DNA of 64,000 nt from Promethearchaeota archaeon. Its GTDB lineage: Archaea > Asgardarchaeota > Heimdallarchaeia > Hodarchaeales > Hodarchaeaceae. Positions within the stretch are counted from its first letter, which is position 1. Every line of letters starts with the position of its first letter. Positions 2,490 through 20,716 of the stretch are shown here, piece by piece. Below the pieces are notes generated by a model that saw only the letters and a list, made by a program, of their open reading frames with translations, was not told the DNA's origin and did no database searches. The position numbers and the translations under genes are program-made. The DNA lies in the NCBI GenBank assembly GCA_048938105.1, contig JBHLMN010000003.1, forward strand, positions 160,001 through 224,000. The letters are read 5' to 3'.

Positions 2490-4067
2490 CTAACATCGTC
2501 CATAACCTCCCCCTCCTGGTGTGTTGATAACTAGAGTTTCCCCCGCCTTGAAGTTAATTATAGCTCTTCCTGGAAGGACAATCTCTTCGTTATCCAATTT
2601 TCGTTTGATATTTAGTCCTTTTGCTCCATTAGAACCGCCAGCTAAACCATAAGGTGCGAGCTTTCTACGCTCCGTTTGCAGCGATACAACTGAATCCACT
2701 AAACATTCAATCTCTCGAATAAGCCCATCACCTCCTTTAACATATCCTCGACCACCAGAATCATTTCGAAAAGAATAACGTTTAACTCGGAGTGGATAAG
2801 CTAATTCTAATGCTTCAATTGGAGTATTGAGTGTATTTGTCATGTGAGAATGAACCCCAGGGATCCCCTGATAGTTTTTACTACTTCCTGTACCACCACC
2901 TATTGTTTCGTAATACGTGAATGCTTTTCCTGTTTGATCAAATCCTCCAATTGTAATATTGTTCATAGTTCCTTGAGATGCAGCAGGAATCTCTGGTATT
3001 GCTTGGGATAATGCTCCAAGCAGGATATCTACCAAACGTTGAGATGTTTCCACATTTCCAGATGAAACAGCTGCTGGAGGAGAAGGATCAAGTAAGCTTC
3101 CTTTCGGAATTTCAATGTCAATGTTACAGAATAACCCTGCATTTGTCATAATCGTTGGGTCAGTTAATGCTCTAAATACATAATAAACACATGAATAAAC
3201 AACGCTTTTTGGAGCGTTTACATTCCCTATTTGTTGAGAATCAGTTCCGTTAAAAGAAACTTTGATTTTATCGTCAATTTTGGTAATAGCTACTTTTATT
3301 CTAACTAAATCGTCAGTTACGCCATTTGAATCAAGAAAATCTTCAAATTGAAACTTTCCCTCTGGAAAATTAGCTAATTGGGATTTAAATGACTTCTCGG
3401 AGAGATCCATTAATTCCTTGACAATATTAAAAAGTGAATCTTGTCCATATTTATCTGTCAGCTCCTCAAGACGTTCTTGTCCTCTTAAGAGAGATGCTCG
3501 CTGAGCTCGAAAATCTCCCAATCTTTCTTCCTGAACACGCACATTAGATAAAATTAGCTTCATAACATCTTTCACTTCTTTCCCCTGATCATAAAGCTTG
3601 ATCGGAGGAATAACTAATCCTTCTTCAAAAAGTTCAGTAGATATACCTGGCATAGATCCTGGTGTGGAGCCACCTATATCGGCATGGTGCGCCCGATTAT
3701 TCACAAAGAAACTTAACTTATTATTTATGAAAATAGGCATTAAAAAGGTCACATCTGGAAGATGAGTGCCTCCAGTATAAGGAGAGTTAAGAATAATGAC
3801 ATCACCTGGGTTCATAGCCTCAATAGGGAATTCTTGCAGAATAGCAGCTATTGATGAAAACATAGCACCAAGATGAACTGGAATGTGCTCTGCTTGTGCT
3901 AATAGTTCAGCGTTTCGATCAAATATAGCACATGAAAAGTCCAACCTTTCTTTACAATTAGGACTGAAAGATGCTCGTTGAAGAATTATCCCCATTTCCT
4001 CAGCAATATTTTCTAATGCCTTTTGAATAACACTTAAGGTTACAATGTCAGTCTTCATTACTGTCAC
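2490..4067 (-). CDS. Hydantoinase B/5-oxoprolinase subunit
   Basis: SPNCKERLDFSCA, HIPVHLG, GGTHLPD, HHADIGG, HMTNT, TPGGGGYG; 4-bp overlap with subunit A. Confidence 0.92.
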   Translation of the reverse strand: MTVMKTDIVTLSVIQKALENIAEEMGIILQRASFSPNCKERLDFSCAIFDRNAELLAQAEHIPVHLGAMFSSIAAILQEFPIEAMNPGDVIILNSPYTGGTHLPDVTFLMPIFINNKLSFFVNNRAHHADIGGSTPGSMPGISTELFEEGLVIPPIKLYDQGKEVKDVMKLILSNVRVQEERLGDFRAQRASLLRGQERLEELTDKYGQDSLFNIVKELMDLSEKSFKSQLANFPEGKFQFEDFLDSNGVTDDLVRIKVAITKIDDKIKVSFNGTDSQQIGNVNAPKSVVYSCVYYVFRALTDPTIMTNAGLFCNIDIEIPKGSLLDPSPPAAVSSGNVETSQRLVDILLGALSQAIPEIPAASQGTMNNITIGGFDQTGKAFTYYETIGGGTGSSKNYQGIPGVHSHMTNTLNTPIEALELAYPLRVKRYSFRNDSGGRGYVKGGDGLIREIECLVDSVVSLQTERRKLAPYGLAGGSNGAKGLNIKRKLDNEEIVLPGRAIINFKAGETLVINTPGGGGYGRC

Positions 4068-6079
4068 CCCTTAGATATTCTCGAGAGAATTAAATGGCCG
4101 TCATTCTTAACTTCTGCTCTCCAACCAATATCAACTAATGTTGTAGAATCATTTTGTTCTATAACACTAGGCCCATCTACTACATTGTTGGCTTTTAATT
4201 TAGATTTTTGGTAAATATTAGCTTTAACCCAATTATTTTCCAAGAATATATCACGAGTCCCTGTTTGAGCATCTTCTGGATCAGTACCTCCGAATAATAA
4301 AGGAGAAAGCTCGAATTTTGGAAGAGGAACCATTGCAGCGACTCGAAGATTAACTATTTCACGAGGAGCTTGGGGAGAGGCGTACCCATATGCTTTTTTG
4401 TGGGCTTCATCGAAAGCATGTGAAGTAGCTTCAATCTTTCCGTAAAATGGTATAGTCAACTCATAGGATTGGCCTACTAGTCGAAGATCAAGGTTGCGGG
4501 CGATAATAACATCTTTCTTTGAAAAACCGTCTTCAACGCATAATTGAATCCCCTGTTGAACAAGAGATGTAAAAGCTGAATCAAGCTGCTCATTAGATAT
4601 TTCATCCAAAGGTTCCAAGAGAGAGTGAGAGAGATCATGACGGATATCAGCAGTTAGGAGGCCATAAGCAGACCAGACTCCTGGATATGGAGGAATAACA
4701 ACCTGCTTCAAAGATAAGCGATCTGCTAGAGAACATCCATGTAGAGGCCCTGCTCCTCCGAATGCCACTAAAACAAAATCACGACTATCATATCCACGTT
4801 CAGTAGAAACTTTACGAAGAGCCAAAGCCACATTGTTCTCAAAAATTTCAATAATCCCTGCAGCACATTCTTCGAGTGAAGAAAAATTGAGTTCATCAGC
4901 AAGAGGAGAGAGAACTCCTTTTGCCAATTTAGGATAAATTTCAATAGCTCCACCACAAAAATAATCAGGATTTAATAGGCCTCTGACCAAGTTTGCATCA
5001 GTAACAGTGGGTAATTTCCCCCCATTATTATAACAGGCTGGCCCTGGATCAGCTCCAGCGCTTTCTGGTCCAACAAGAAAAATTCCATGTTCATACTTAG
5101 CAATTGATCCTCCTCCTGCACCAATTGTTTGTACTGCTATGGATGGAAGATGAATAGGGTAACCTGCAATTTCATTTACATTGGATATTTCTATTTTTCC
5201 ATTTACAATGCTTGCAACATCGGTAGAAGTCCCTCCAATATCCAAGGTGAGAGCATTTTTAATTTGGAGTTCATTACAAGAATAAAAACCTCCAAGTACT
5301 CCTCCAGCCAAACCTGAAAAAATCGTTTCAACAGAAGCTGCATTTTTAATTTGAGTAACTCCTCCTGTAGAGAGAAGAATAAGAGGAGGTACCATTATTC
5401 CTTTTTCATTAATTCTATGTAAAAAAGAATTGAAGTATTTTTTACATAAAGGCGCAATATAAGCATCTAGTACTGTTGTACTCGTTCTATCGTATTCACG
5501 AAATATAGGAAGAATTTGGCTTGAACGTGACACATTTATCGAAGGAAGTTGCTGTATAATTTTATTAGCGATTTTCATTTCATGTTGAGGATAAAAAAAA
5601 GAGAATAGGAGGGAGATAGCTACAGACTCAACTTTCGTTTCCTGTAGAGCGTTTACAATTCCCCCTAAATCATTGAGATCCAACGGTGTAAGTATTTCAC
5701 CAGAAGCACTAATACGTTCTTTCACACCAAATCTTAGCTCTTTAGCAACAAGAGGTTTAACTCTTATAGGATAGAGTGAATAGAGATTCAAGCGGTTTTG
5801 ACGACCAATTTCTATAATATCTGAGAAACCTTCGGTTGCAATCAATGCGGTCTTAGCTCCTTTATGTTCTAATATGGCATTTGTTGCAACGGTAGTTCCA
5901 TGAACAACGACGTTTAGATTCTCTAATGTGGTTTTTAGTTTGGTTAATCCAACCTCCACTCCAATAGATTGATCATTAGGTGTACTGGAAACTTTTTCAA
6001 GGATAACAGAGTTACTTTCTGAATTAACAACGATTAAATCTGTGAAAGTACCACCTATGTCTATACCAAGACATTTCAT
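4064..6079 (-). CDS. Hydantoinase A/5-oxoprolinase subunit
   Basis: DIGGTFTD, HGTTVATNA, DIGGTSTD, GAGGGS, GADPGPACY, FGGAGPLH. Confidence 0.92.
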   Translation of the reverse strand: MKCLGIDIGGTFTDLIVVNSESNSVILEKVSSTPNDQSIGVEVGLTKLKTTLENLNVVVHGTTVATNAILEHKGAKTALIATEGFSDIIEIGRQNRLNLYSLYPIRVKPLVAKELRFGVKERISASGEILTPLDLNDLGGIVNALQETKVESVAISLLFSFFYPQHEMKIANKIIQQLPSINVSRSSQILPIFREYDRTSTTVLDAYIAPLCKKYFNSFLHRINEKGIMVPPLILLSTGGVTQIKNAASVETIFSGLAGGVLGGFYSCNELQIKNALTLDIGGTSTDVASIVNGKIEISNVNEIAGYPIHLPSIAVQTIGAGGGSIAKYEHGIFLVGPESAGADPGPACYNNGGKLPTVTDANLVRGLLNPDYFCGGAIEIYPKLAKGVLSPLADELNFSSLEECAAGIIEIFENNVALALRKVSTERGYDSRDFVLVAFGGAGPLHGCSLADRLSLKQVVIPPYPGVWSAYGLLTADIRHDLSHSLLEPLDEISNEQLDSAFTSLVQQGIQLCVEDGFSKKDVIIARNLDLRLVGQSYELTIPFYGKIEATSHAFDEAHKKAYGYASPQAPREIVNLRVAAMVPLPKFELSPLLFGGTDPEDAQTGTRDIFLENNWVKANIYQKSKLKANNVVDGPSVIEQNDSTTLVDIGWRAEVKNDGHLILSRISKG

Positions 6080-7015: not shown

Positions 7016-7612
7016 TTGAAGTATATGAATTTACCCTTAAAATGGCAGTCTCGCTTTAGACGACGAATATGGTCAAAAACTCGACTCAATCACACAACAA
7101 ATTGGAAAAAACATTTAATTTCGCTTTATATAATCCGATCTGATGGTATTTGTTTGTTCTCCCACCATTTTCAAATAGGTCTAATATCTCAAATTGAAAC
7201 TCAATTAGTAGGAATGGGATTTACAGCTATCTCTCAAATGATGCAAGAAATTGTCGATTCATCATTAAGTTTGGAATTGATAGATCTTGGTCCGAAAAAG
7301 GTTTTAATTGAGGAATACGAGAATATTTTAGCCATTTTAATCGCTACAACAAACTCTGACTTCTTACGAGCTAAACTTAAAGAACTAGCGGATCATTTTG
7401 AAAAAATGTTTGAACTCCAGCAAAGAATAAGCGCCGAAACACGAGTGAGTTTGGAGGATTATGCGTTGACAGCAGAATTAGTTTCGATGGTTTTTCAAGA
7501 TCAACCCACGCGTGTCTTAGAGATAATTCCCGTGATTTTCAAGTCAATTAGAAAAAATAAAACCACTAAATCTGGGCAAAAAACTCTTTCTACCATTTTA
7601 CACAGTTACTAA
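7016..7612 (+). CDS. Longin-like domain protein (Asgard eukaryotic-signature type)
   Basis: LYIIRSDGICLFS...LVGMGFTAISQMMQEI...LKELADHFEKMF matches the longin beta-beta-alpha-beta3-alpha pattern. Confidence 0.65.
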   Translation: MKYMNLPLKWQSRFRRRIWSKTRLNHTTNWKKHLISLYIIRSDGICLFSHHFQIGLISQIETQLVGMGFTAISQMMQEIVDSSLSLELIDLGPKKVLIEEYENILAILIATTNSDFLRAKLKELADHFEKMFELQQRISAETRVSLEDYALTAELVSMVFQDQPTRVLEIIPVIFKSIRKNKTTKSGQKTLSTILHSY

Positions 7613-8746
7613 AATCAGGAGTAATGGGATCGCTTCTATCATCAGATGGAAACCGAGTGCAGTTTCAAAATCACGTCGTACAAATAAATAAAACAGAGGG
7701 AGACTTCTGAATAGAACTGTTCTAAGAAGATATGGTAATACTGCTAACCAAAAAGTAATTGGATATAATAGTTCAACCTCAACAAATATTACAAAGATAA
7801 TTGCTCCCCAACAACGATATTCTACTTTATCAAGAGGTCTAAACAGAATATAAGCTATTGGGATTAAGAATAATCGTGCCCAAACTTCTTCATTAAGTCC
7901 AAAACACAAAAAATTATACACTAGAGTAAACTCAGCAAGTGGCTCTCTTCTTGAAAACGCAACAAGTGGTTCCCACCAATAGAAATCGGTCCCCACATTG
8001 AAAGTAATAAGACTTACAGATGCTAAGCCCCAAGGAATCCCTAGAAAAAGCCCAACGCATAAGCTCCTTAATGCGGGATAGAAGTCTTTGTCCAATAGGT
8101 TCACTTGAATAAAACCAGTTTTCCTGATCAGGAATAATCCTGCATGAACAATAGAGAAAAAGCATATTAATAAAACTGAGGTTATAATCAAAACTCCCAA
8201 AGAAATATCCTCTGGAGGAATGACAGATTTATGAAAAATTACCCTCCAGATAGTCTCCCAAAAAACGAAACCAATAACCAAAATAATAGTTACTATAATC
8301 ATCCAAGGATCAATCATTCGAGTTTTTAAAATAAAAAAACTAATAATTCCCACGGCGGTCAAACCTAGTATTAATGTTCCAATCAAGTCGATACTCTGCG
8401 ACGGACCAAAGACTGCAACCAGAAAAATTATGATAGATGGTATTATTAGTGTTATCATTGGACTCTCTTTGAATGATTCATCAATGAATGGCCTTCTTAT
8501 CCTCTGTTCAGATTGTTTTTCTAGGTAGTCTTCTGTCCATGGTTCCTTATTAAGCCAAAAGTAAGTTGAAATTATAATTATTAAAAGAATAACATAATTT
8601 ATAAGGTTTGAATCAAGTCCGAACGAAAAGTTGGCTATAATAATGAAAACTGAACCAATAATTATTGCCAATATTACTATTAACTCTTCTTTCCAATTAG
8701 ACATTTCCAATTTAGAGATCATGGAAGGCACCAGCGATATTTTCAA
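7598..8746 (-). CDS. Polytopic membrane protein, probable CPBP (CAAX/Abi) intramembrane protease family
   Basis: About 10 hydrophobic segments; EEVWAR (EExxxR) and C-terminal GFHLMI. Confidence 0.6.
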   Translation of the reverse strand: MKISLVPSMISKLEMSNWKEELIVILAIIIGSVFIIIANFSFGLDSNLINYVILLIIIISTYFWLNKEPWTEDYLEKQSEQRIRRPFIDESFKESPMITLIIPSIIIFLVAVFGPSQSIDLIGTLILGLTAVGIISFFILKTRMIDPWMIIVTIILVIGFVFWETIWRVIFHKSVIPPEDISLGVLIITSVLLICFFSIVHAGLFLIRKTGFIQVNLLDKDFYPALRSLCVGLFLGIPWGLASVSLITFNVGTDFYWWEPLVAFSRREPLAEFTLVYNFLCFGLNEEVWARLFLIPIAYILFRPLDKVEYRCWGAIIFVIFVEVELLYPITFWLAVLPYLLRTVLFRSLPLFYLFVRRDFETALGFHLMIEAIPLLLILVTV

Positions 8747-8747
8747 A

Positions 8748-9539
8748 TCAGAGTTTTTGAATGAATCCTGGGGAAGGTTCGAAAAAGATTCCCTTCAACA
8801 ATCCCTGTTCTATCGCTTGTTTTACAGAGCTAAAAGGAACTCCTTTCTCGTTTGCTATCTTATTGAGTGTCTCAAGTTTAATAGGTTTATCAGTAATGAA
8901 CGACAAGACATCTGCCGCAGTTTCATTGGCCATTAAGAAATCTTTGAAATCCTGTTCCAAATTATCTGCATCTTCTTGGGAAATACTTTTCTTTTGCAAT
9001 GATGTCTGTAGTAAATCTTGAAATATGGTTTTTGCATCCGAGGCTGATTCAAGATAGCACCTGATATGATAGAATTTGTGAGAAAAAAACTTGCGACCAC
9101 CATCCAATTCAACTTGTGAGGGTTCAGCAACACGAAGAATTCCTTTTTCTATCTTTTTCTCACAGATTCTACAAGCTCCTCGCGAACTCTTCGAATACTC
9201 AAGAAAAGATTTACGTGTAGCAGCAGTTCTTTGAGGGCTATCAATAACCTCCTTTTTTCTTTTTTTCAGAGATTCGAAGATTTTCGCTTTATCCTCTGCA
9301 TCTATTGTGGAAGACGAGTCCAAGAATTCCATTATTATGTCTATTTTATCTTGAGGAACACAGGCTACATGATAGAAACCATGAGAGGTGATTGTTTCGC
9401 CGTCTGGTTTAGTAAAAAGATAAGGAATACCAATCCGAAACTCATTTTTAATGATTTTTTGACGACAAGTCCTACAAGATGCTCTACTTGTCTTTGCAGG
9501 CTCAATTTTTAGTTTAATTTTCCCAGACATCAAGCTCAC
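8748..9539 (-). CDS. Protein with two PARP-type zinc fingers and a probable C-terminal winged helix
   Basis: IEPAKTSRASCRTC-x31-HVAC and LEYSKSSRGACRIC-x31-HIRC. Confidence 0.85.
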   Translation of the reverse strand: MSLMSGKIKLKIEPAKTSRASCRTCRQKIIKNEFRIGIPYLFTKPDGETITSHGFYHVACVPQDKIDIIMEFLDSSSTIDAEDKAKIFESLKKRKKEVIDSPQRTAATRKSFLEYSKSSRGACRICEKKIEKGILRVAEPSQVELDGGRKFFSHKFYHIRCYLESASDAKTIFQDLLQTSLQKKSISQEDADNLEQDFKDFLMANETAADVLSFITDKPIKLETLNKIANEKGVPFSSVKQAIEQGLLKGIFFEPSPGFIQKL

Positions 9540-9610
9540 TTCTGGGTAGAATTAGTAATTCAACTAAAAGACCTCTCCTCTATCTTTCTTTTAAAACTTC
9601 CTTTTATTTC

Positions 9611-9913
9611 TTCTATTAACGGAAAAACCTACCTTATTTCTTAGAGGATATCGTGCCGAGAAGGTGCGAACCTTTCGCAAGGAAGGTTTATAAGGGTTAG
9701 TGTGTTAGGGTTTGGTAGGATCAAACTGAAAGATGTAGTTCCTACGGTGGCGCGTTGGGTAAAGATGTGTGTTCTGGAGATGCACCAGAATCGTTATACC
9801 TACTACATCCTAAGTAATCCTATCGGGCTCTTTAATCAAGGGAAGGCGAGTTGAACCTTCGGTTCACTCTTACCTTGCATAAATAGGATTACAGTAGGTG
9901 AGAGTTAATAGAA
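9611..9913 (+). ncRNA. Putative ~300-nt structured non-coding RNA, family unknown
   Basis: No long ORF; GC-richer than its flanks; nested helices 9611-9620/9904-9913, 9627-9632/9894-9899, 9732-9739/9802-9809, 9814-9823/9883-9892; GCAA-capped and UUCG-containing hairpins; G-U pairs favour the + strand. Confidence 0.65.
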
Positions 9914-9980
9914 TCGAGTATTACAAATAAAATCGCATTAATCAGTGGTAATAACAAGGGACTCCAAAATTTTGTGGAAT

Positions 9981-10943
9981 TCATGAAAGAAAAATAAATC
10001 TAGTGCTCTTAATGCCTTCGCTTGACTTTTGTGAAAATGAAGAATGAGTTTCTGAGGCTGCAATAAATTCCTCTAAATTATTTGCAATGAAAGTTATCAT
10101 TTCTTCCTTTAGGATGTCAAATTTTCCGTAAATCTCTGGAATAACATATGTAAAGAAGACAAAAATCTTGTCATAGCATTTAAAATGCCAGATGACCGAA
10201 TCACGAAGTCGCTTGGCTCCTATTAAAGACATATTATCTCTGTATTTGCTTAATAGATACTCTTGTTTAATATAATTGGAAATAGAGGCTAATAAAGGAT
10301 CTGAAATGTCTTCGTGAGTTTGACTTTTTGCAGTTGAGAATAAATAATTCCCATTTTCATCGTAAACGAGAATGAATGAGACAAATTCTTCTAGATCAGT
10401 TTTAATTTTACTTAAAATTTTCCAATATATTGAAGCATCTTCCCCCAATGGTCCCTCGATGGCTTTTTCGAAATTCTCTTCCAAACCTACATATTCAGGG
10501 TTTTCTAGGTTTGCTTGCATTGGAGAATAATGACTAAGTAAATTTGTTGGTAATTGTTGAAATTCAGGAGAAGTAGATATTGATACTAGCGATATCCCGT
10601 TTGGAGCCTTCGCATAATCGACATATAGTGGTTTATTTTCTTTTTTGGATATGTCTAAGAGAGTAGGTCTAACAATATCTTTCAATTGTATTATAGCTTC
10701 CAATAGGCCTGACATTAGAAGTATTCTCTCATTTTTTGGACTTACTTCTTGACTTTGACGAGTGTGTATTTCTCCTGATTTATTTATATGAATAGATCGA
10801 GTATAGACGGGGAGGCCACCCTCATCAGCAAGAATCACCATTAAATTACTTCCCCTTAAGGAGGATTGACAAACGAGAGGCTGATTCTCATTGGCTAGCT
10901 GGTCAAATGACAATCTTTTAGAATTTTCATTGGACAAATTCAA
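9981..10943 (-). CDS. Hypothetical protein, possibly tandem longin/roadblock-like domains
   Basis: VILADEGGLPVYTR...LLMSGLLEAI and FILVYDENGNYLFS...DPLLASI. Confidence 0.45.
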   Translation of the reverse strand: MNLSNENSKRLSFDQLANENQPLVCQSSLRGSNLMVILADEGGLPVYTRSIHINKSGEIHTRQSQEVSPKNERILLMSGLLEAIIQLKDIVRPTLLDISKKENKPLYVDYAKAPNGISLVSISTSPEFQQLPTNLLSHYSPMQANLENPEYVGLEENFEKAIEGPLGEDASIYWKILSKIKTDLEEFVSFILVYDENGNYLFSTAKSQTHEDISDPLLASISNYIKQEYLLSKYRDNMSLIGAKRLRDSVIWHFKCYDKIFVFFTYVIPEIYGKFDILKEEMITFIANNLEEFIAASETHSSFSQKSSEGIKSTRFIFLS

Positions 10944-11066: not shown

Positions 11067-12083
11067 TTAAAAGAACCCTGACATTAAGATATTATCCCAA
11101 CTTACCTCATTGAAAAGATAGAGGAATTCTTTAAATGTTAAAATCGGTTTTTTGAAATTAATATGATCATCAATAGCTATTCGTGGACAAGCTGTATCTA
11201 CCCAAGCATCAACCCAAGTGATGTTGGCAAGATTCTCAAAATTGAGATTTTCCGCAATAACAGAGATTTTTGATCTATTATGATCGATTAATATCTTTTC
11301 GATCTTAGTTATTTGATCAGGATGATATTGGCCAAGTTTCGAACTCCCTAAAATTCCCCATACTTTTGCATTACGACCTTGGTTAATAATGTGAAGCCTC
11401 TTGCGAATTAATTTATTTCTCTCTTCATTTGGGAAGTATTGTATTTCACCTGTAAAGGGATTTAATTGTAAGATAGGGATTGATGTACAGAGGAGTAATC
11501 CATAAGTGTGAAAGTACCCAGCATGAAGGCTGATTATCCCATCAACTTCTTTCGGAAATCCTCTAATATTCTTAACATGGCATCCAAGTATTTGACCTTC
11601 TCCCTCACTATTATAATTTATTCCTATAGTATCTAAAAAGGTTTTTAATTCTTGTAAATTCCTCAAATGCTGAACTGTTGCTATTAAACCCACATTATTC
11701 CATTTTAATTCCTTTAATTTCTCAGATAATTTAGTAAAGTAAGAAGATATTCCAAACGTAACGAAAGCAGGAATTATTAATATTTCAAGGGATTTATTGA
11801 TTATAGAATTGATTTTTTGCTTAAAGCCAAACTCATTATGCCCAAAGTGGATGAGTAATTCACATTCCAATTGAATAGCTAAATTGACAGCTAAATCGCA
11901 TATTCCATAACTAGGATCACCCACTGCAATGATTTGAACATCAAGAGGTTCTAATGTTTCAAGTAACGTTTTAAGAGGAGTATCAAGTAACCCTTCAGGC
12001 ATTTGGATTAGAATTTTTTTGTATCGCTTATCTAAGATTATTTGTGTGATTTTATCTAATTCTAGATTGTATAATTGACTCAT
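11067..12083 (-). CDS. dph2: Diphthamide biosynthesis protein Dph2
   Basis: QMPEG, YGICD, HFGH, GQILGC, KLGQ, TACPRIAIDD (three Fe-S cysteines). Confidence 0.93.
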   Translation of the reverse strand: MSQLYNLELDKITQIILDKRYKKILIQMPEGLLDTPLKTLLETLEPLDVQIIAVGDPSYGICDLAVNLAIQLECELLIHFGHNEFGFKQKINSIINKSLEILIIPAFVTFGISSYFTKLSEKLKELKWNNVGLIATVQHLRNLQELKTFLDTIGINYNSEGEGQILGCHVKNIRGFPKEVDGIISLHAGYFHTYGLLLCTSIPILQLNPFTGEIQYFPNEERNKLIRKRLHIINQGRNAKVWGILGSSKLGQYHPDQITKIEKILIDHNRSKISVIAENLNFENLANITWVDAWVDTACPRIAIDDHINFKKPILTFKEFLYLFNEVSWDNILMSGFF

Positions 12084-12205: not shown

Positions 12206-13156
12206 TTGCTTGAGACAATTCTTATTGACCAGGGGATAATCCAATCACAACGATTAAGTCTTTTATGTGTTCCTGACTACTTATTTTTTAGAACGCACTC
12301 TCATAGGCTTTATAGAGAGTTTAAAGGTATTCCACGATATTCCATAATAACTCGAAAGGTCACTGATCAGCTTGATACCGCCTTACATTATGATCACGCT
12401 TGTTCTCTAAAAACGCTTTTTATTGTTGACGGTTCAACAGCCTTAACAAATGCTCCCTTTTACTTTCAACTTGCAAAACAGTTAGACCTATCTATTGTTG
12501 GGACAAACTTGGATATTAATGAACTCCCCAAACTTAGGTATACTCCGACAAAAAGTATGAACTTTCAGAAATTTGAACCTCTCACTATTGTTAGTAGTGA
12601 AGTCCATTATCATGCTCCACTACATGAAAGTGGTTTGGAAAACAATGCCATAACTCTCCCTCCAACATTTAACCTCTTTACCCAACCAATTACTATAACC
12701 CAAAACACCATTGCAATAGGTTCTGTCAAAAACATAAATGATTTTTTTCCTATCAATTTTGATTTAATGAGAATTAATTTAGGAGATTTTGTCGAATACA
12801 ATCAGCGTTTTCCAAAAACATCTGGAAGTAATGATAATACAAAAAAGAGCCGAAAACAGGCAATTCTTGAGGGGATAAATAGAATCATTAATGTATTCAA
12901 TATTTCTGTTATACTTATTTCACTTTATAAACTCTCTAAATTTTTCGCATCATCAACAGATCCGATAAAACACCAAGTACAAGATATTTGTGACAATTGG
13001 AACTTCTCCGAGGCGATGCTTATAAATAATGAAAAAAGGAGAGTCTGGGAAAAGGAGCCAATGGAGAATTTAAAGGATTTGTTTGATGCCCAAGGTTATA
13101 TTGTAATATTCAATCAAGAAAGAAGGCCAAAAACAGTTTCTCAAGTTAAATATTAA
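12206..13156 (+). CDS. Hypothetical protein
   Basis: 316-aa ORF; no motif recognised. Confidence 0.6.
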   Translation: MLETILIDQGIIQSQRLSLLCVPDYLFFRTHSHRLYREFKGIPRYSIITRKVTDQLDTALHYDHACSLKTLFIVDGSTALTNAPFYFQLAKQLDLSIVGTNLDINELPKLRYTPTKSMNFQKFEPLTIVSSEVHYHAPLHESGLENNAITLPPTFNLFTQPITITQNTIAIGSVKNINDFFPINFDLMRINLGDFVEYNQRFPKTSGSNDNTKKSRKQAILEGINRIINVFNISVILISLYKLSKFFASSTDPIKHQVQDICDNWNFSEAMLINNEKRRVWEKEPMENLKDLFDAQGYIVIFNQERRPKTVSQVKY

Positions 13157-19791: not shown

Positions 19792-20325
19792 TTACCAGCG
19801 AGTTCTCTCACGATCTCGTGAACGGCCCCTATCACCCGAAAAACCACGATCACCGCGATCACCGCGATCACCGCGATCTCCACGGTTGTATCCACCATAA
19901 CTCCGGCGTGGCCTTCTTCTTCTGCGAGTATCCTCATGGACTTCTTCAGATCGGTCATTATCCATATCAACAGAATCAAGAGTAATTTTTTCATCTGTTT
20001 CTTCAAGAGAACCCCACTTTCCTAGCGCCAGACGCATATGTTCTTGGAAGACATTCACATAACCATTCTTAACCATATAAGTGTCTCCTTCATTGACTCG
20101 GTCAATTGTGTCGTCCCAGAGGGTAAGGATAATGGTACCTGTTGGATCCCCAATTTTTACATCAGCTAATGTATGTTCTTCATTTGTTTTTCGGGATGTA
20201 ATTGTACGTGATTCACCTTTCTCAATAACAACGAATGTTACTTGAAGCTTTCGATCGAAAGGTGATAATTCACTAATTTTCTTTTCATTTAATTCAATAT
20301 TACTGTCGTCTTGAGATTCGTTCAT
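19792..20325 (-). CDS. ssb: Single OB-fold single-stranded nucleic-acid-binding protein with Arg/Gly/Asp-rich tail
   Basis: KISEL...IGDPTGTIILTLWD...NGYVNVF..L.LGKWG; ATG at 20325. Confidence 0.85.
   Translation of the reverse strand: MNESQDDSNIELNEKKISELSPFDRKLQVTFVVIEKGESRTITSRKTNEEHTLADVKIGDPTGTIILTLWDDTIDRVNEGDTYMVKNGYVNVFQEHMRLALGKWGSLEETDEKITLDSVDMDNDRSEEVHEDTRRRRRPRRSYGGYNRGDRGDRGDRGDRGFSGDRGRSRDRERTRW
19847..19882. repeat. 9-bp tandem repeat CGATCACCG (3 perfect + 1 degenerate) encoding RGD repeats in the SSB tail
   Basis: Read directly from the sequence. Confidence 0.9.
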
Positions 20326-20716
20326 AATTTTCACGTGTGTTTTCTTTTCACGATGCTTAAAGCTTCGCTTGATAATCACATAAAAGAAGAATCAGGTTAA
20401 ATCGAGTAAACTGATGCATATTCGAGCCTTTTGATGTGAATAAAAGCGTTTTTCGTGCAAATTACTTGAAAAAAAAAGAGAATTATTAACCTTTTTATTT
20501 TTGGTTGAATAAATCCACTAATATGATGGTGTTTTGTATTAAACCTGCCAATATTATTGAAGCTTCATAGAGAACAACTAATCAAATATAGTAACAAATT
20601 CAAGCCTGTTTAAGACTTCTCAAGAATAATACCAGAGAAAGTATAAAAATCTCTGGTGTAAAATAATATCGATAAACTAATTTATTTATTTTATAGCCAA
20701 AACTAGTGAGATTTTA

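What the first reader, a model, noticed from the sequence alone, without database searches (positions are those of the whole stretch)
8748..9539. Archaeal protein with tandem PARP1-type zinc fingers and no catalytic domain
Seen: two C-x2-C-x31-H-x2-C fingers starting EPAKTSRASC and EYSKSSRGAC..EKKIEKG, followed by a winged-helix-like C-terminus. Known: eukaryotic PARP1 opens with two such fingers (EYAKSGRASC, EYAKSNRSTC..EKIEKG), which sense DNA breaks, and DNA ligase III has one. Inference: a stand-alone nick/end sensor resembling the PARP1 Zn1-Zn2 module, and a candidate eukaryotic-signature protein.
Basis: partly seen in the sequence, partly recalled or inferred. Interest (0 to 1): 0.75.

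Follow-up and report, generated by a model that had tools for sequence, protein, structure and literature searches.

The report
Asgard PARP-type fingers with MCM-like tail
A Hodarchaeales (Asgard) archaeon encodes a small enzyme-free protein that joins two genuine PARP1-type DNA-break-sensing zinc fingers to a winged-helix tail like that of its own MCM helicase; such fingers were already reported in these archaea, so only the architecture and the functional hypothesis it suggests are new.

Summary
ORF 8748-9539 (-), probably starting at ATG 9530 (260 aa), carries two zf-PARP fingers (Pfam PF00645, E 3.4e-24). Both have C-x2-C-x31-H-x2-C spacing and align co-linearly with human PARP1 F1-F2. The C-terminus is a winged helix (WH).

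By profile comparison the WH is closest to the C-terminal WH of the same genus's MCM helicase (hhalign 96%, E 2e-9). It is related more weakly to the Rpa2/RPA32C WH. No PARP catalytic, WGR, BRCT or Zn3 domain is in the protein, and none was found in the 99%-complete genome.

The F-F-WH form was seen in the window's own family (18 of 20 genomes have the fingers) and sits in conserved synteny. Other Heimdallarchaeia and a second Asgard class carry different finger architectures.

The headline is not new. Eme et al. 2023 (Nature, Supplementary 4.1.3) reported zf-PARP homologs in Heimdall- and Thorarchaeia. This scan also flagged the same family in other genomes.

The eukaryotic-signature reading is weakened. 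Stand-alone tandem-finger proteins also occur in Myxococcota, Planctomycetota (13 of 201 genomes), Acidobacteriota and Gammaproteobacteria, and the 56-column finger tree is unresolved.

Most likely function (inferred): a non-enzymatic adaptor that binds DNA discontinuities through the fingers and docks replication or repair proteins through the WH.

The parts
8748..9539 (-). Whole ORF of the F1-F2-WH protein (263 codons from GTG 9539; probable start ATG 9530 = 260 aa; stop codon 8748-8750)
   Evidence: The database protein P0002 starts at M4, and homologs start at the equivalent Met.
9246..9515 (-). zf-PARP finger 1 (residues 9-98; Zn ligands C22, C25, H57, C60; grip arginines R19, R35)
   Evidence: Pfam PF00645 stretch 13-99; HMM envelope 9-98; alignment to PARP1 F1; fold match to PARP1 Zn1
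9213..9245 (-). Flexible inter-finger linker (residues 99-109). In orthologs P0024 and P0025 an SSB-type OB fold is inserted here.
   Evidence: pLDDT below 50 for residues 100-106; OB insert (PF21473) at P0024 residues 132-196
8955..9212 (-). zf-PARP finger 2 with its helical tail (residues 110-195; Zn ligands C123, C126, H158, C161; grip arginines R120, R136)
   Evidence: fold match to PARP1 Zn2 (TM by target ~0.65)
8751..8942 (-). C-terminal winged-helix domain of the MCM-tail / Rpa2 type (residues 200-263), ending ...GIFFEPSPGFIQKL
   Evidence: AF2 pLDDT 90; VIA Z 9.0 to P. abyssi Rpa2 WH and 7.7 to archaeal MCM WH; hhalign 96.3%, E 2e-9 to own-genus MCM WH and 72.8% to Heimdallarchaeial Rpa2 WH; BLASTP E 8e-10 to own MCM tail

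Best explanation
The gene encodes a non-enzymatic DNA-damage or DNA-structure adaptor. Two PARP-type CCHC zinc fingers, joined by a flexible linker, bind DNA discontinuities (nick, gap or end) as PARP1 F1-F2 and the ligase III finger do. The C-terminal winged helix is a paralog-like copy of the MCM helicase tail and is related to the Rpa2/RPA32C WH. It acts as a protein-docking handle for replication or repair factors, for example Orc1/Cdc6, primase or a polymerase. Shown: the domain identities, the conservation of the zinc ligands and phosphate-grip arginines, and the absence of any catalytic domain. Inferred: DNA binding, nick or gap specificity, and WH-mediated recruitment.
For: Fingers:
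- Pfam E 3.4e-24; co-linear alignment to PARP1 F1F2, E 1.6e-9.
- Foldseek to 2n8a (PARP1 F1F2 on DNA) E 8e-10; single fingers give TM by target ~0.65.
- R19, R35, R120 and R136 are (nearly) invariant in 19 homologs and align to PARP1 R18, R34, R122 and R138.

Winged helix:
- hhalign to own-genus MCM C-terminal WH: 96.3%, E 2e-9, score 50.2, against column-shuffled 10.7 +/- 2.5.
- BLASTP to own MCM tail E 8e-10; tblastn hit to the own MCM gene.
- hhalign to Heimdallarchaeial Rpa2 WH: 72.8%, score 30, against shuffled 10.6 +/- 2.0.
- Best structural matches are Rpa2 WH (Z 9.0), MCM WH (7.7) and RPA32C (7.6).
- The WH has roughly zero net charge by my count of K/R against D/E in residues 200-263 (sequence).
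- Its most conserved residues (E244, G246, L248, G250, F253, P257, Q261, K262, L263) lie in alpha3-end/beta2/wing/beta3. That is the canonical partner-binding surface of Rpa2-WH/PriS, RPA32C/SMARCAL1 and Stn1/Pol-alpha (PMC11686378).
- The archaeal MCM WH contacts ORB-bound Orc1-1 (PMC12141716).

Domain fusion: orthologs P0024/P0025 carry an SSB-type OB fold (PF21473, E 2e-13) between the fingers. It is 57% identical (BLASTP; 58% by the genome search) to the stand-alone SSB at window 19792-20379, which links the family to ssDNA and gaps.

Inheritance: the fingers are present in 18 of 20 genomes of the family, and the gene lies in conserved synteny in 6 congeneric loci.
Against: - There is no biochemical evidence.
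- PARP1's base-stacking residues (F44 in Zn1; L151/I154 in Zn2) are not conserved, and the loops are 1-3 residues longer, so the recognised DNA structure may differ.
- WH folds are common, and Z-alpha and DprA WHs tie structurally (Z 8.3).
- The gene neighbourhood holds no repair or replication genes: Dph2, conserved genes without a family match and an ArsR-type HTH gene.
- Inter-domain geometry is not confidently modelled (pTM 0.52).
Confidence: 0.55

Rival explanations
1. A general DNA-binding, chromatin or transcription factor. The fingers bind duplex DNA without break specificity, and the winged helix is itself a DNA-binding domain.
For: Many WH structural neighbours are DNA-binding regulators (Fur, IclR, MecI, Z-alpha). 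The base-stacking residues of PARP1 are not conserved. An ArsR-type HTH gene lies in the conserved synteny block.
Against: By sequence profile the WH is closest to the MCM and Rpa2 tails, which are protein-interaction or regulatory modules (PMC11686378, PMC12141716, PMC4619765). The WH has about zero net charge, and its alpha3 helix has only two lysines (sequence). The OB (ssDNA-binding) insertion in orthologs fits damage or gap recognition better.
Confidence: 0.2
2. An RNA-binding protein that forms an RNP with the structured RNA-like element directly upstream (9611-9913).
For: From general knowledge, PARP1 fingers can also bind RNA.
Against: In five congeneric loci the same spacer is only 58-105 bp, and in a sixth it is 1258 bp, so the element is not a conserved partner of the gene. 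Another agent identified it as a group II intron-derived insertion. Rfam finds nothing at gathering threshold.
Confidence: 0.05
3. On origin, not function: the tandem-finger module is a prokaryotic invention shared with, or exchanged with, bacteria. It would not be a vertically inherited precursor of the PARP1 Zn1-Zn2 pair, and the Asgard and PARP1 finger duplications would be independent.
For: Stand-alone tandem zf-PARP proteins of 175-215 aa occur in Myxococcota (Archangium, Myxococcaceae), Acidobacteriota, Gammaproteobacteria and Planctomycetota (13 of 201 genomes). In the finger tree PARP1 F1 and F2 form one starred clade (99/96), with the very long-branched second finger of the f6-type proteins nested inside it. 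Asgard type-A F1 and F2 group with bacterial second fingers (99/88).
Against: Only 56 columns were used. AU tests do not reject bacterial monophyly (p 0.35) or an Asgard-F2 + PARP1-F2 clade (p 0.28). The tree is unrooted. The domain is far more prevalent in Heimdall-type families (18/20, 23/31, 10/12) than in the bacteria sampled.
Confidence: 0.35

Closest known systems
Human PARP1 N-terminal zinc fingers F1-F2 (Zn1-Zn2; PDB 2N8A, 4AV1, 3OD8, 3ODC, 9MI8)
   Same: Two tandem CCHC zf-PARP fingers at the N-terminus, joined by a flexible linker, with a co-linear alignment (E 1.6e-9). The fold is the same, and the phosphate-grip arginines are conserved.
   Different: Zn3/PADR1, BRCT, WGR, helical and catalytic domains are absent from the protein, and none was found in the genome. 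The base-stacking residues are not conserved. The CxxC-to-H spacing is 31 residues in both fingers, against 28 and 30 in PARP1. The C-terminus is a WH instead. Finger-by-finger orthology is not supported by the tree.
DNA ligase III-alpha zinc finger (PDB 1UW0)
   Same: A zf-PARP fold used as a nick sensor without PARylation (phmmer E 2.6e-4, Foldseek E 2e-3).
   Different: Ligase III has a single finger fused to a ligase. This protein has two fingers and no enzyme.
'zf-PARP' eukaryotic signature protein of Heimdall- and Thorarchaeia (Eme et al. 2023, Nature 618:992, Supplementary Information 4.1.3)
   Same: This is the same protein family and the same claim. The distribution found here (own class plus one other Asgard class; almost none in the 135-genome family f20) matches 'only Heimdall- and Thorarchaeia'.
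   Different: The publication is one paragraph. It does not describe the architectures (F-F-WH, F-OB-F-WH, F-insert-F, N-domain-F), the MCM-type WH or the bacterial homologs.
Bacterial stand-alone tandem zf-PARP proteins (~175-215 aa; Myxococcota, Planctomycetota, Acidobacteriota, Gammaproteobacteria; uncharacterised)
   Same: Two zf-PARP fingers and no catalytic domain.
   Different: They end right after finger 2 and have no WH. Their second finger is divergent.
C-terminal winged helix of archaeal MCM (PF21120; PDB 2MA3, 2M45) and of Rpa2/RPA32 (PF08784; PDB 9F27, 4MQV, 1DPU)
   Same: The same small WH fold with the same C-terminal signature (G-x-hydrophobic-F/Y-E-P-x-x-G-x-hydrophobic-K/Q-K/R-x): hhalign 96% to own-genus MCM WH, 73% to Rpa2 WH, VIA Z 7.6-9.0.
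   Different: It is attached to zinc fingers instead of an AAA+ helicase or an OB fold with a trimerisation helix. Neither Pfam model matches at E <= 1.

Membership tests
zf-PARP (Pfam PF00645) | HMM score above the curated cut-off | tested here: met
   85.8 bits against 39.3, E 3.4e-24, two stretches
zf-PARP (Pfam PF00645) | CCHC zinc ligands (C-x2-C-x~28-31-H-x2-C) | tested here: met
   C22/C25/H57/C60 and C123/C126/H158/C161. Across 19 homologs C60, C123, C126, C161, H57 and H158 are invariant and C22 and C25 nearly so.
zf-PARP (Pfam PF00645) | Three-stranded sheet plus helical tail fold, as in PARP1 Zn1/Zn2 | tested here: met
   AF2 pLDDT ~90 over the fingers. Foldseek to 3ODC, 3ODE and 3OD8 gives TM by target 0.59-0.66, E ~3e-4; to 2N8A E 8e-10.
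zf-PARP (Pfam PF00645) | Phosphate-backbone-grip arginines (PARP1 R18/R34, R122/R138; positions from the literature, recalled) | tested here: met
   R19, R35, R120 and R136 align to them and are (nearly) invariant
zf-PARP (Pfam PF00645) | Hydrophobic base-stacking loop residue (PARP1 F44; L151/I154) | tested here: not met
   The aligned positions are P45 in F1 and polar or Gly residues in F2. The loops are 1-3 residues longer. L145 and F151 are conserved nearby, but their equivalence is unproven.
zf-PARP (Pfam PF00645) | Binding to nicked or broken DNA | not testable with these tools
   Needs EMSA or anisotropy
Poly(ADP-ribose) polymerase (PARP1-like) | PARP catalytic domain (PF00644), WGR, PADR1/Zn3 | tested here: not met
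   None in the protein. PF00644 was not found in the own genome, but that search had no positive control. tblastn of three full-length PARP1s hits only the fingers.
Archaeal MCM C-terminal winged helix (PF21120) | Sequence-profile similarity to MCM WH | tested here: met
   hhalign 96.3%, E 2e-9 over 47 columns against 18 own-genus MCM tails, with shuffled controls at most 21.7 against 50.2. BLASTP E 8e-10. The Pfam model itself gives no hit.
Archaeal MCM C-terminal winged helix (PF21120) | Attached to an MCM AAA+ helicase core | tested here: not met
   The protein has only fingers N-terminal of the WH
Rpa2/RPA32 (PF08784 RPA_C) | WH fold and profile similarity | tested here: inconclusive
   Best structural match (Z 9.0, rmsd 1.9 A over 62 residues, 21% identity). 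hhalign 72.8%, E 3.2e-5. No Pfam RPA_C hit at E <= 1. Rpa2 WH and MCM WH of these archaea also resemble each other (95%).
Rpa2/RPA32 (PF08784 RPA_C) | OB fold (DBD-D) plus trimerisation helix N-terminal of the WH | tested here: not met
   Absent here. The OB inserted in P0024 is of the SSB type (PF21473) and sits between the fingers.
Eukaryotic signature protein (strict sense) | Found in eukaryotes and Asgard archaea but not in other prokaryotes | tested here: not met
   zf-PARP tandem proteins occur in Myxococcota, Planctomycetota (13 of 201 genomes), Acidobacteriota and Gammaproteobacteria
Eukaryotic signature protein (strict sense) | Asgard sequences sister to eukaryotic ones in a phylogeny | tested here: inconclusive
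   In the 56-column tree PARP1 fingers form their own clade and Asgard type-A fingers group with bacterial F2. AU tests reject neither arrangement.

The most novel reading that the evidence does not exclude
The protein is an enzyme-free break sensor. It would present an MCM-type 'loader handle' (WH) at nicks, gaps or broken forks and so recruit Orc1/Cdc6, primase or a polymerase for replication restart or repair. The PARP1 Zn1-Zn2 module of eukaryotes would descend from such a Hodarchaeales-type protein, making this a pre-PARylation stage of eukaryotic break signalling.
Probability: 0.15. Interest if true: 0.75.

Novelty: new member of a known kind. Interest (0 to 1): 0.42.

Why it matters
PARP1's break-sensing fingers are a hallmark of eukaryotic genome maintenance. 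A conserved Hodarchaeales protein combines the same fingers with a replisome-type docking domain and no enzyme. That gives a simple, testable model for what the fingers did before they were coupled to poly(ADP-ribosyl)ation. It also raises the question of whether archaeal replication-loading or priming factors are brought to DNA lesions. The bacterial homologs and the unresolved tree caution against listing zf-PARP as a clean eukaryotic signature inherited from Asgard archaea.

Tried and rejected
- Complex prediction of own PriS (L070:1210-2190) with the WH: no verdict (score 0.00). This is no evidence either way.
- The search for related loci with the mixed finger alignment A3 failed for lack of a conserved stretch.
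- Viral contigs hold no relatives.
- Pfam and NCBIfam give nothing for the C-terminal domain. A recurrent weak Sp-DndD match (13 of 19 members, best E 0.002) was treated as generic HTH similarity.
- The exhaustive HMM search with the C-terminal profile found only this family (about 12 clusters), plus long coiled-coil proteins matching the long helix. Those were judged spurious.
- Atlas feature search for the WH gave only weak leads (0.81-0.83: MCM WH, RPA_C) and nothing for the N-domain of the single-finger proteins.
- AU tests on the finger tree were inconclusive.
- An operon link to the downstream 382-aa membrane gene (7598-8746, one base away) was rejected, because that gene is not next to the finger gene in any congeneric locus.
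- The RNP idea with the upstream structured element was rejected, because the element is not conserved at this position.
- Neighbours of the other finger architectures (AMP-binding enzyme, thioesterase, HATPase, M3 peptidase) gave no functional hint.
- The middle insert of the F-insert-F proteins shows no BLAST similarity to the SSB OB, so I do not call it an OB fold.
- The PF00644 genome search had no positive control. It was backed up by tblastn with three PARP1s.

Full report
**Observation**

The minus-strand ORF 8748-9539 is real. It has 263 codons from a GTG. The protein on record for this DNA starts three codons downstream at ATG 9530 (260 aa; P0002), and homologs start at the equivalent methionine. 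Residue numbers below follow the 263-codon frame.

Both fingers have exactly C-x2-C-x31-H-x2-C: C22/C25/H57/C60 and C123/C126/H158/C161. Pfam zf-PARP (PF00645) matches twice, with E 3.4e-24 and 85.8 bits against a 39.3-bit cut-off. phmmer against PDB chains aligns residues 10-168 co-linearly with residues 9-169 of human PARP1 (E 1.6e-9), and finger 2 alone matches the DNA ligase III finger.

**Organism and inheritance**

All close homologs (41-82% identity, ~260 aa) come from MAGs labelled Hodarchaeota, Hodarchaeales, Heimdallarchaeota or Promethearchaeota. The window also carries Dph2 (11067-12083). Eme et al. report dph genes as retained in all Hodarchaeales but lost in other Heimdallarchaeia. 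The genome is 5.85 Mb and 99% complete, and this is its only zf-PARP gene.

The gene sits in a block conserved in six congeneric loci: Xer-type integrase, ArsR-HTH protein, a 316-aa protein, Dph2, a 320-aa protein with no family match, then the finger gene. This holds even where the finger protein is only ~32% identical. It is therefore a vertically inherited gene of this lineage, not a recent import.

Two local features are not conserved next to it. The downstream membrane gene (7598-8746) is absent from the congeneric loci. The 441-bp upstream spacer, which holds a structured element that another agent reads as a group II intron remnant, is only 58-105 bp in five congeners.

**Structure**

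AlphaFold2 on a 19-sequence alignment gives mean pLDDT 85.6, with a disordered inter-finger linker (residues 100-106) and pTM 0.52. Foldseek returns PARP1 F1F2 on DNA (2N8A, E 8e-10), and single PARP1 fingers with TM by target ~0.6-0.66.

In the alignments, PARP1's phosphate-grip arginines correspond to R19/R35 and R120/R136, which are (nearly) invariant in the family. The identity of those PARP1 residues (R18, R34, R122, R138) is my recollection of the PARP1 structural literature. PARP1's base-stacking residues (F44; L151/I154) are not conserved, and the hairpin loops are 1-3 residues longer. DNA binding is therefore a well-grounded inference, but nick specificity is not shown.

**C-terminal domain**

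Modelled alone, residues 166-263 reach pLDDT 90. Residues ~201-263 form a small winged helix (WH). An all-against-all structural search ranks these matches:
- Pyrococcus abyssi Rpa2 WH: Z 9.0, rmsd 1.9 A over 62 residues.
- Z-alpha and DprA WHs: Z 8.3.
- Archaeal MCM WH: Z 7.7.
- Human RPA32C: Z 7.6.

No Pfam or NCBIfam model matches this domain.

Sequence profiles are more telling. Against the C-termini of Heimdallarchaeial Rpa2-like proteins, hhalign gives 72.8%, E 3.2e-5, score 30.0. Column-shuffled controls give 10.6 +/- 2.0, with a maximum of 19.9. Against the C-terminal WH of MCM from 18 genomes of the window's own genus, it gives 96.3%, E 2e-9, score 50.2. Shuffled controls give 10.7 +/- 2.5, with a maximum of 21.7.

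The own-genome MCM tail ends ...RRGILFEPQPGYVKRP, and this protein ends ...LKGIFFEPSPGFIQKL (BLASTP E 8e-10). tblastn of the whole protein against the genome also finds the MCM tail. Rpa2 and MCM tails of these archaea resemble each other too (95%). The domain is therefore a replisome-type terminal WH, closest to the MCM tail.

An exhaustive HMM search with the C-terminal profile finds it only in this finger family.

**What such WHs do (literature)**

- The P. abyssi Rpa2 WH binds primase PriS through a canonical alpha3/beta2/beta3 surface that is shared with RPA32C-SMARCAL1 and Stn1-Pol-alpha. It binds PolD through a second surface (PMC11686378).
- The Sulfolobus MCM WH contacts origin-bound Orc1-1 (PMC12141716, citing Samson et al. 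2016).
- Deleting the MCM WH raises ATPase and helicase activity (PMC4619765).

In this family the most conserved WH residues (E244, G246, L248, G250, F253, P257, Q261, K262, L263) lie on that same alpha3-end/beta2/wing/beta3 region. The domain has about zero net charge by my count of the sequence. This favours a protein-docking role over DNA binding, but it remains an inference.

**Variants and distribution**

In 399 genomes of the phylum, 100 have zf-PARP. By family:

| Family | Genomes with zf-PARP | Architecture |
|---|---|---|
| f1 (own family) | 18/20 | F-F-WH |
| f6 | 10/12 | Finger, ~120-aa unassigned insert, finger |
| f4 | 23/31 | ~150-aa unassigned N-domain plus one C-terminal finger |
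| f5 | 3/3 | Same as f4 |
| Second class (f31 listed; tally covers three families) | 43/89 | Same as f4 |
| f7 | 0/12 | None |
| f12 | 0/19 | None |
| f19 | 0/14 | None |
| f20 | 1/135 (a weak, stop-containing match) | None intact |

Two orthologs, P0024 and P0025, have an SSB-type OB fold (PF21473, E 2e-13) inserted in the inter-finger linker. It is 57% identical (BLASTP; 58% by the genome search) to the stand-alone SSB at window 19792-20379, and that genome also keeps its own SSB ortholog. A fusion of the fingers with an ssDNA-binding fold supports a role at gaps or ss/ds junctions.

**No PARP enzyme**

The protein has no catalytic, WGR, BRCT or Zn3 domain. The PF00644 search of the genome is negative but had no positive control. 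tblastn with a mammalian, a fern and a mosquito PARP1 hits only the two fingers.

**Comparison with the literature**

The presence of these fingers in Asgard archaea is already published. Eme et al. [quoted passage not shown] My distribution agrees with this. I found no paper that describes the architectures or the WH. The same family was also flagged by this scan in other genomes, and one follow-up reached the same 'MCM tail' reading. I tested that independently.

**Eukaryotic-signature claim**

Stand-alone tandem-finger proteins without a catalytic domain or WH also occur in bacteria. They are found in Myxococcota (Archangium, Myxococcaceae), Acidobacteriota and Gammaproteobacteria, and in Planctomycetota (13 of 201 sampled genomes).

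A maximum-likelihood tree of 69 finger cores (56 columns) puts PARP1 F1 and F2 together in one supported clade (99/96). The very long-branched second finger of the f6-type proteins is nested inside that clade, probably through long-branch attraction. Asgard type-A F1 and F2 group with bacterial second fingers (99/88). This gives no support for one-to-one orthology of the tandem pair.

AU tests do not reject bacterial monophyly (p 0.35) or an Asgard-F2 + PARP1-F2 clade (p 0.28). The origin question is therefore open. The domain is not exclusive to Asgard archaea and eukaryotes, but a recent bacterial transfer into this lineage is not supported either.

**Verdict**

The finding is real and the domain reading is correct. 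The functional reading (break or nick sensor) is plausible but unproven. The evolutionary headline is already published and should be softened. What this analysis adds:
- The defined F1-F2-WH architecture.
- The MCM/Rpa2-type identity of the WH.
- The OB-insertion variant.
- The bacterial counterparts.
- A concrete adaptor hypothesis with direct bench tests.

Noticed in passing
window 19792-20379 (-): A stand-alone crenarchaeal-type SSB (PF21473, E 2e-15; NCBIfam SSB). It has a Gly/Arg/Asp-rich tail and is 57% identical to the OB fold inserted between the fingers of orthologs P0024/P0025. The own genome gives 6 matches to this SSB, one of them with an internal stop.
   Followed up: partly
window 9540-9980: The spacer between the finger gene and the upstream 320-aa gene is 441 bp here, but only 58-105 bp in five congeneric loci and 1258 bp in L034. 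This fits an insertion; another agent reads 9611-9913 as a group II intron remnant.
   Followed up: partly
window 9981-10943 (-) and 12206-13156 (+): Two conserved proteins (320 and 316 aa) have no Pfam or NCBIfam family. They flank Dph2 in the same order in six congeneric genomes, and the 320-aa gene is always directly upstream of the finger gene.
   Followed up: partly
L004:1030-1725 (+), L028:1492-2178 (-) and about 60 further genomes (families f4, f5, f31): A second Asgard zf-PARP architecture: a ~150-aa N-terminal domain with no detectable family (starting ...EWGYY.DP...) followed by a single C-terminal finger. It is present in 23 of 31 and 3 of 3 genomes of two Heimdall-type families, and in 43 of 89 genomes of another class (probably Thorarchaeia).
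   Followed up: partly
L024:671-1621 (+); P0041-P0043: A third architecture in family f6 (10 of 12 genomes): finger, then a ~120-aa unassigned, probably beta-rich insert, then a divergent second finger, with no WH. The second finger sits on a very long branch and was attracted into the PARP1 clade in the tree.
   Followed up: partly
P0057, P0067 (911-918 aa; Sandaracinaceae): Bacterial proteins with N-terminal tandem zf-PARP fingers followed by ~740 residues without any Pfam match.
   Followed up: no
P0032, P0038 (table): The precomputed annotation lists a Pfam family PF26927 on two family members. It is not in the Pfam copy available here, so I could not tell whether it covers the WH.
   Followed up: no
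G000:C52:452307-452519 (own genome, outside the window): The MCM gene lies in a 1345-aa open frame. Congeners range from ~690 to 1756 aa, which suggests intein-containing MCMs in part of the genus.
   Followed up: no
own genome and genus: The Pfam RPA_C model gives only weak matches in the window's family (7 of 20 at E <= 0.01, best 1.6e-4), while families f4 and f7 have clear ~220-240-aa Rpa2-like proteins. The Rpa2 of this lineage may be divergent.
   Followed up: no
window 2490-6079 (-): A hydantoinase/oxoprolinase B and A pair, conserved in synteny with the finger-gene block in the genus.
   Followed up: no
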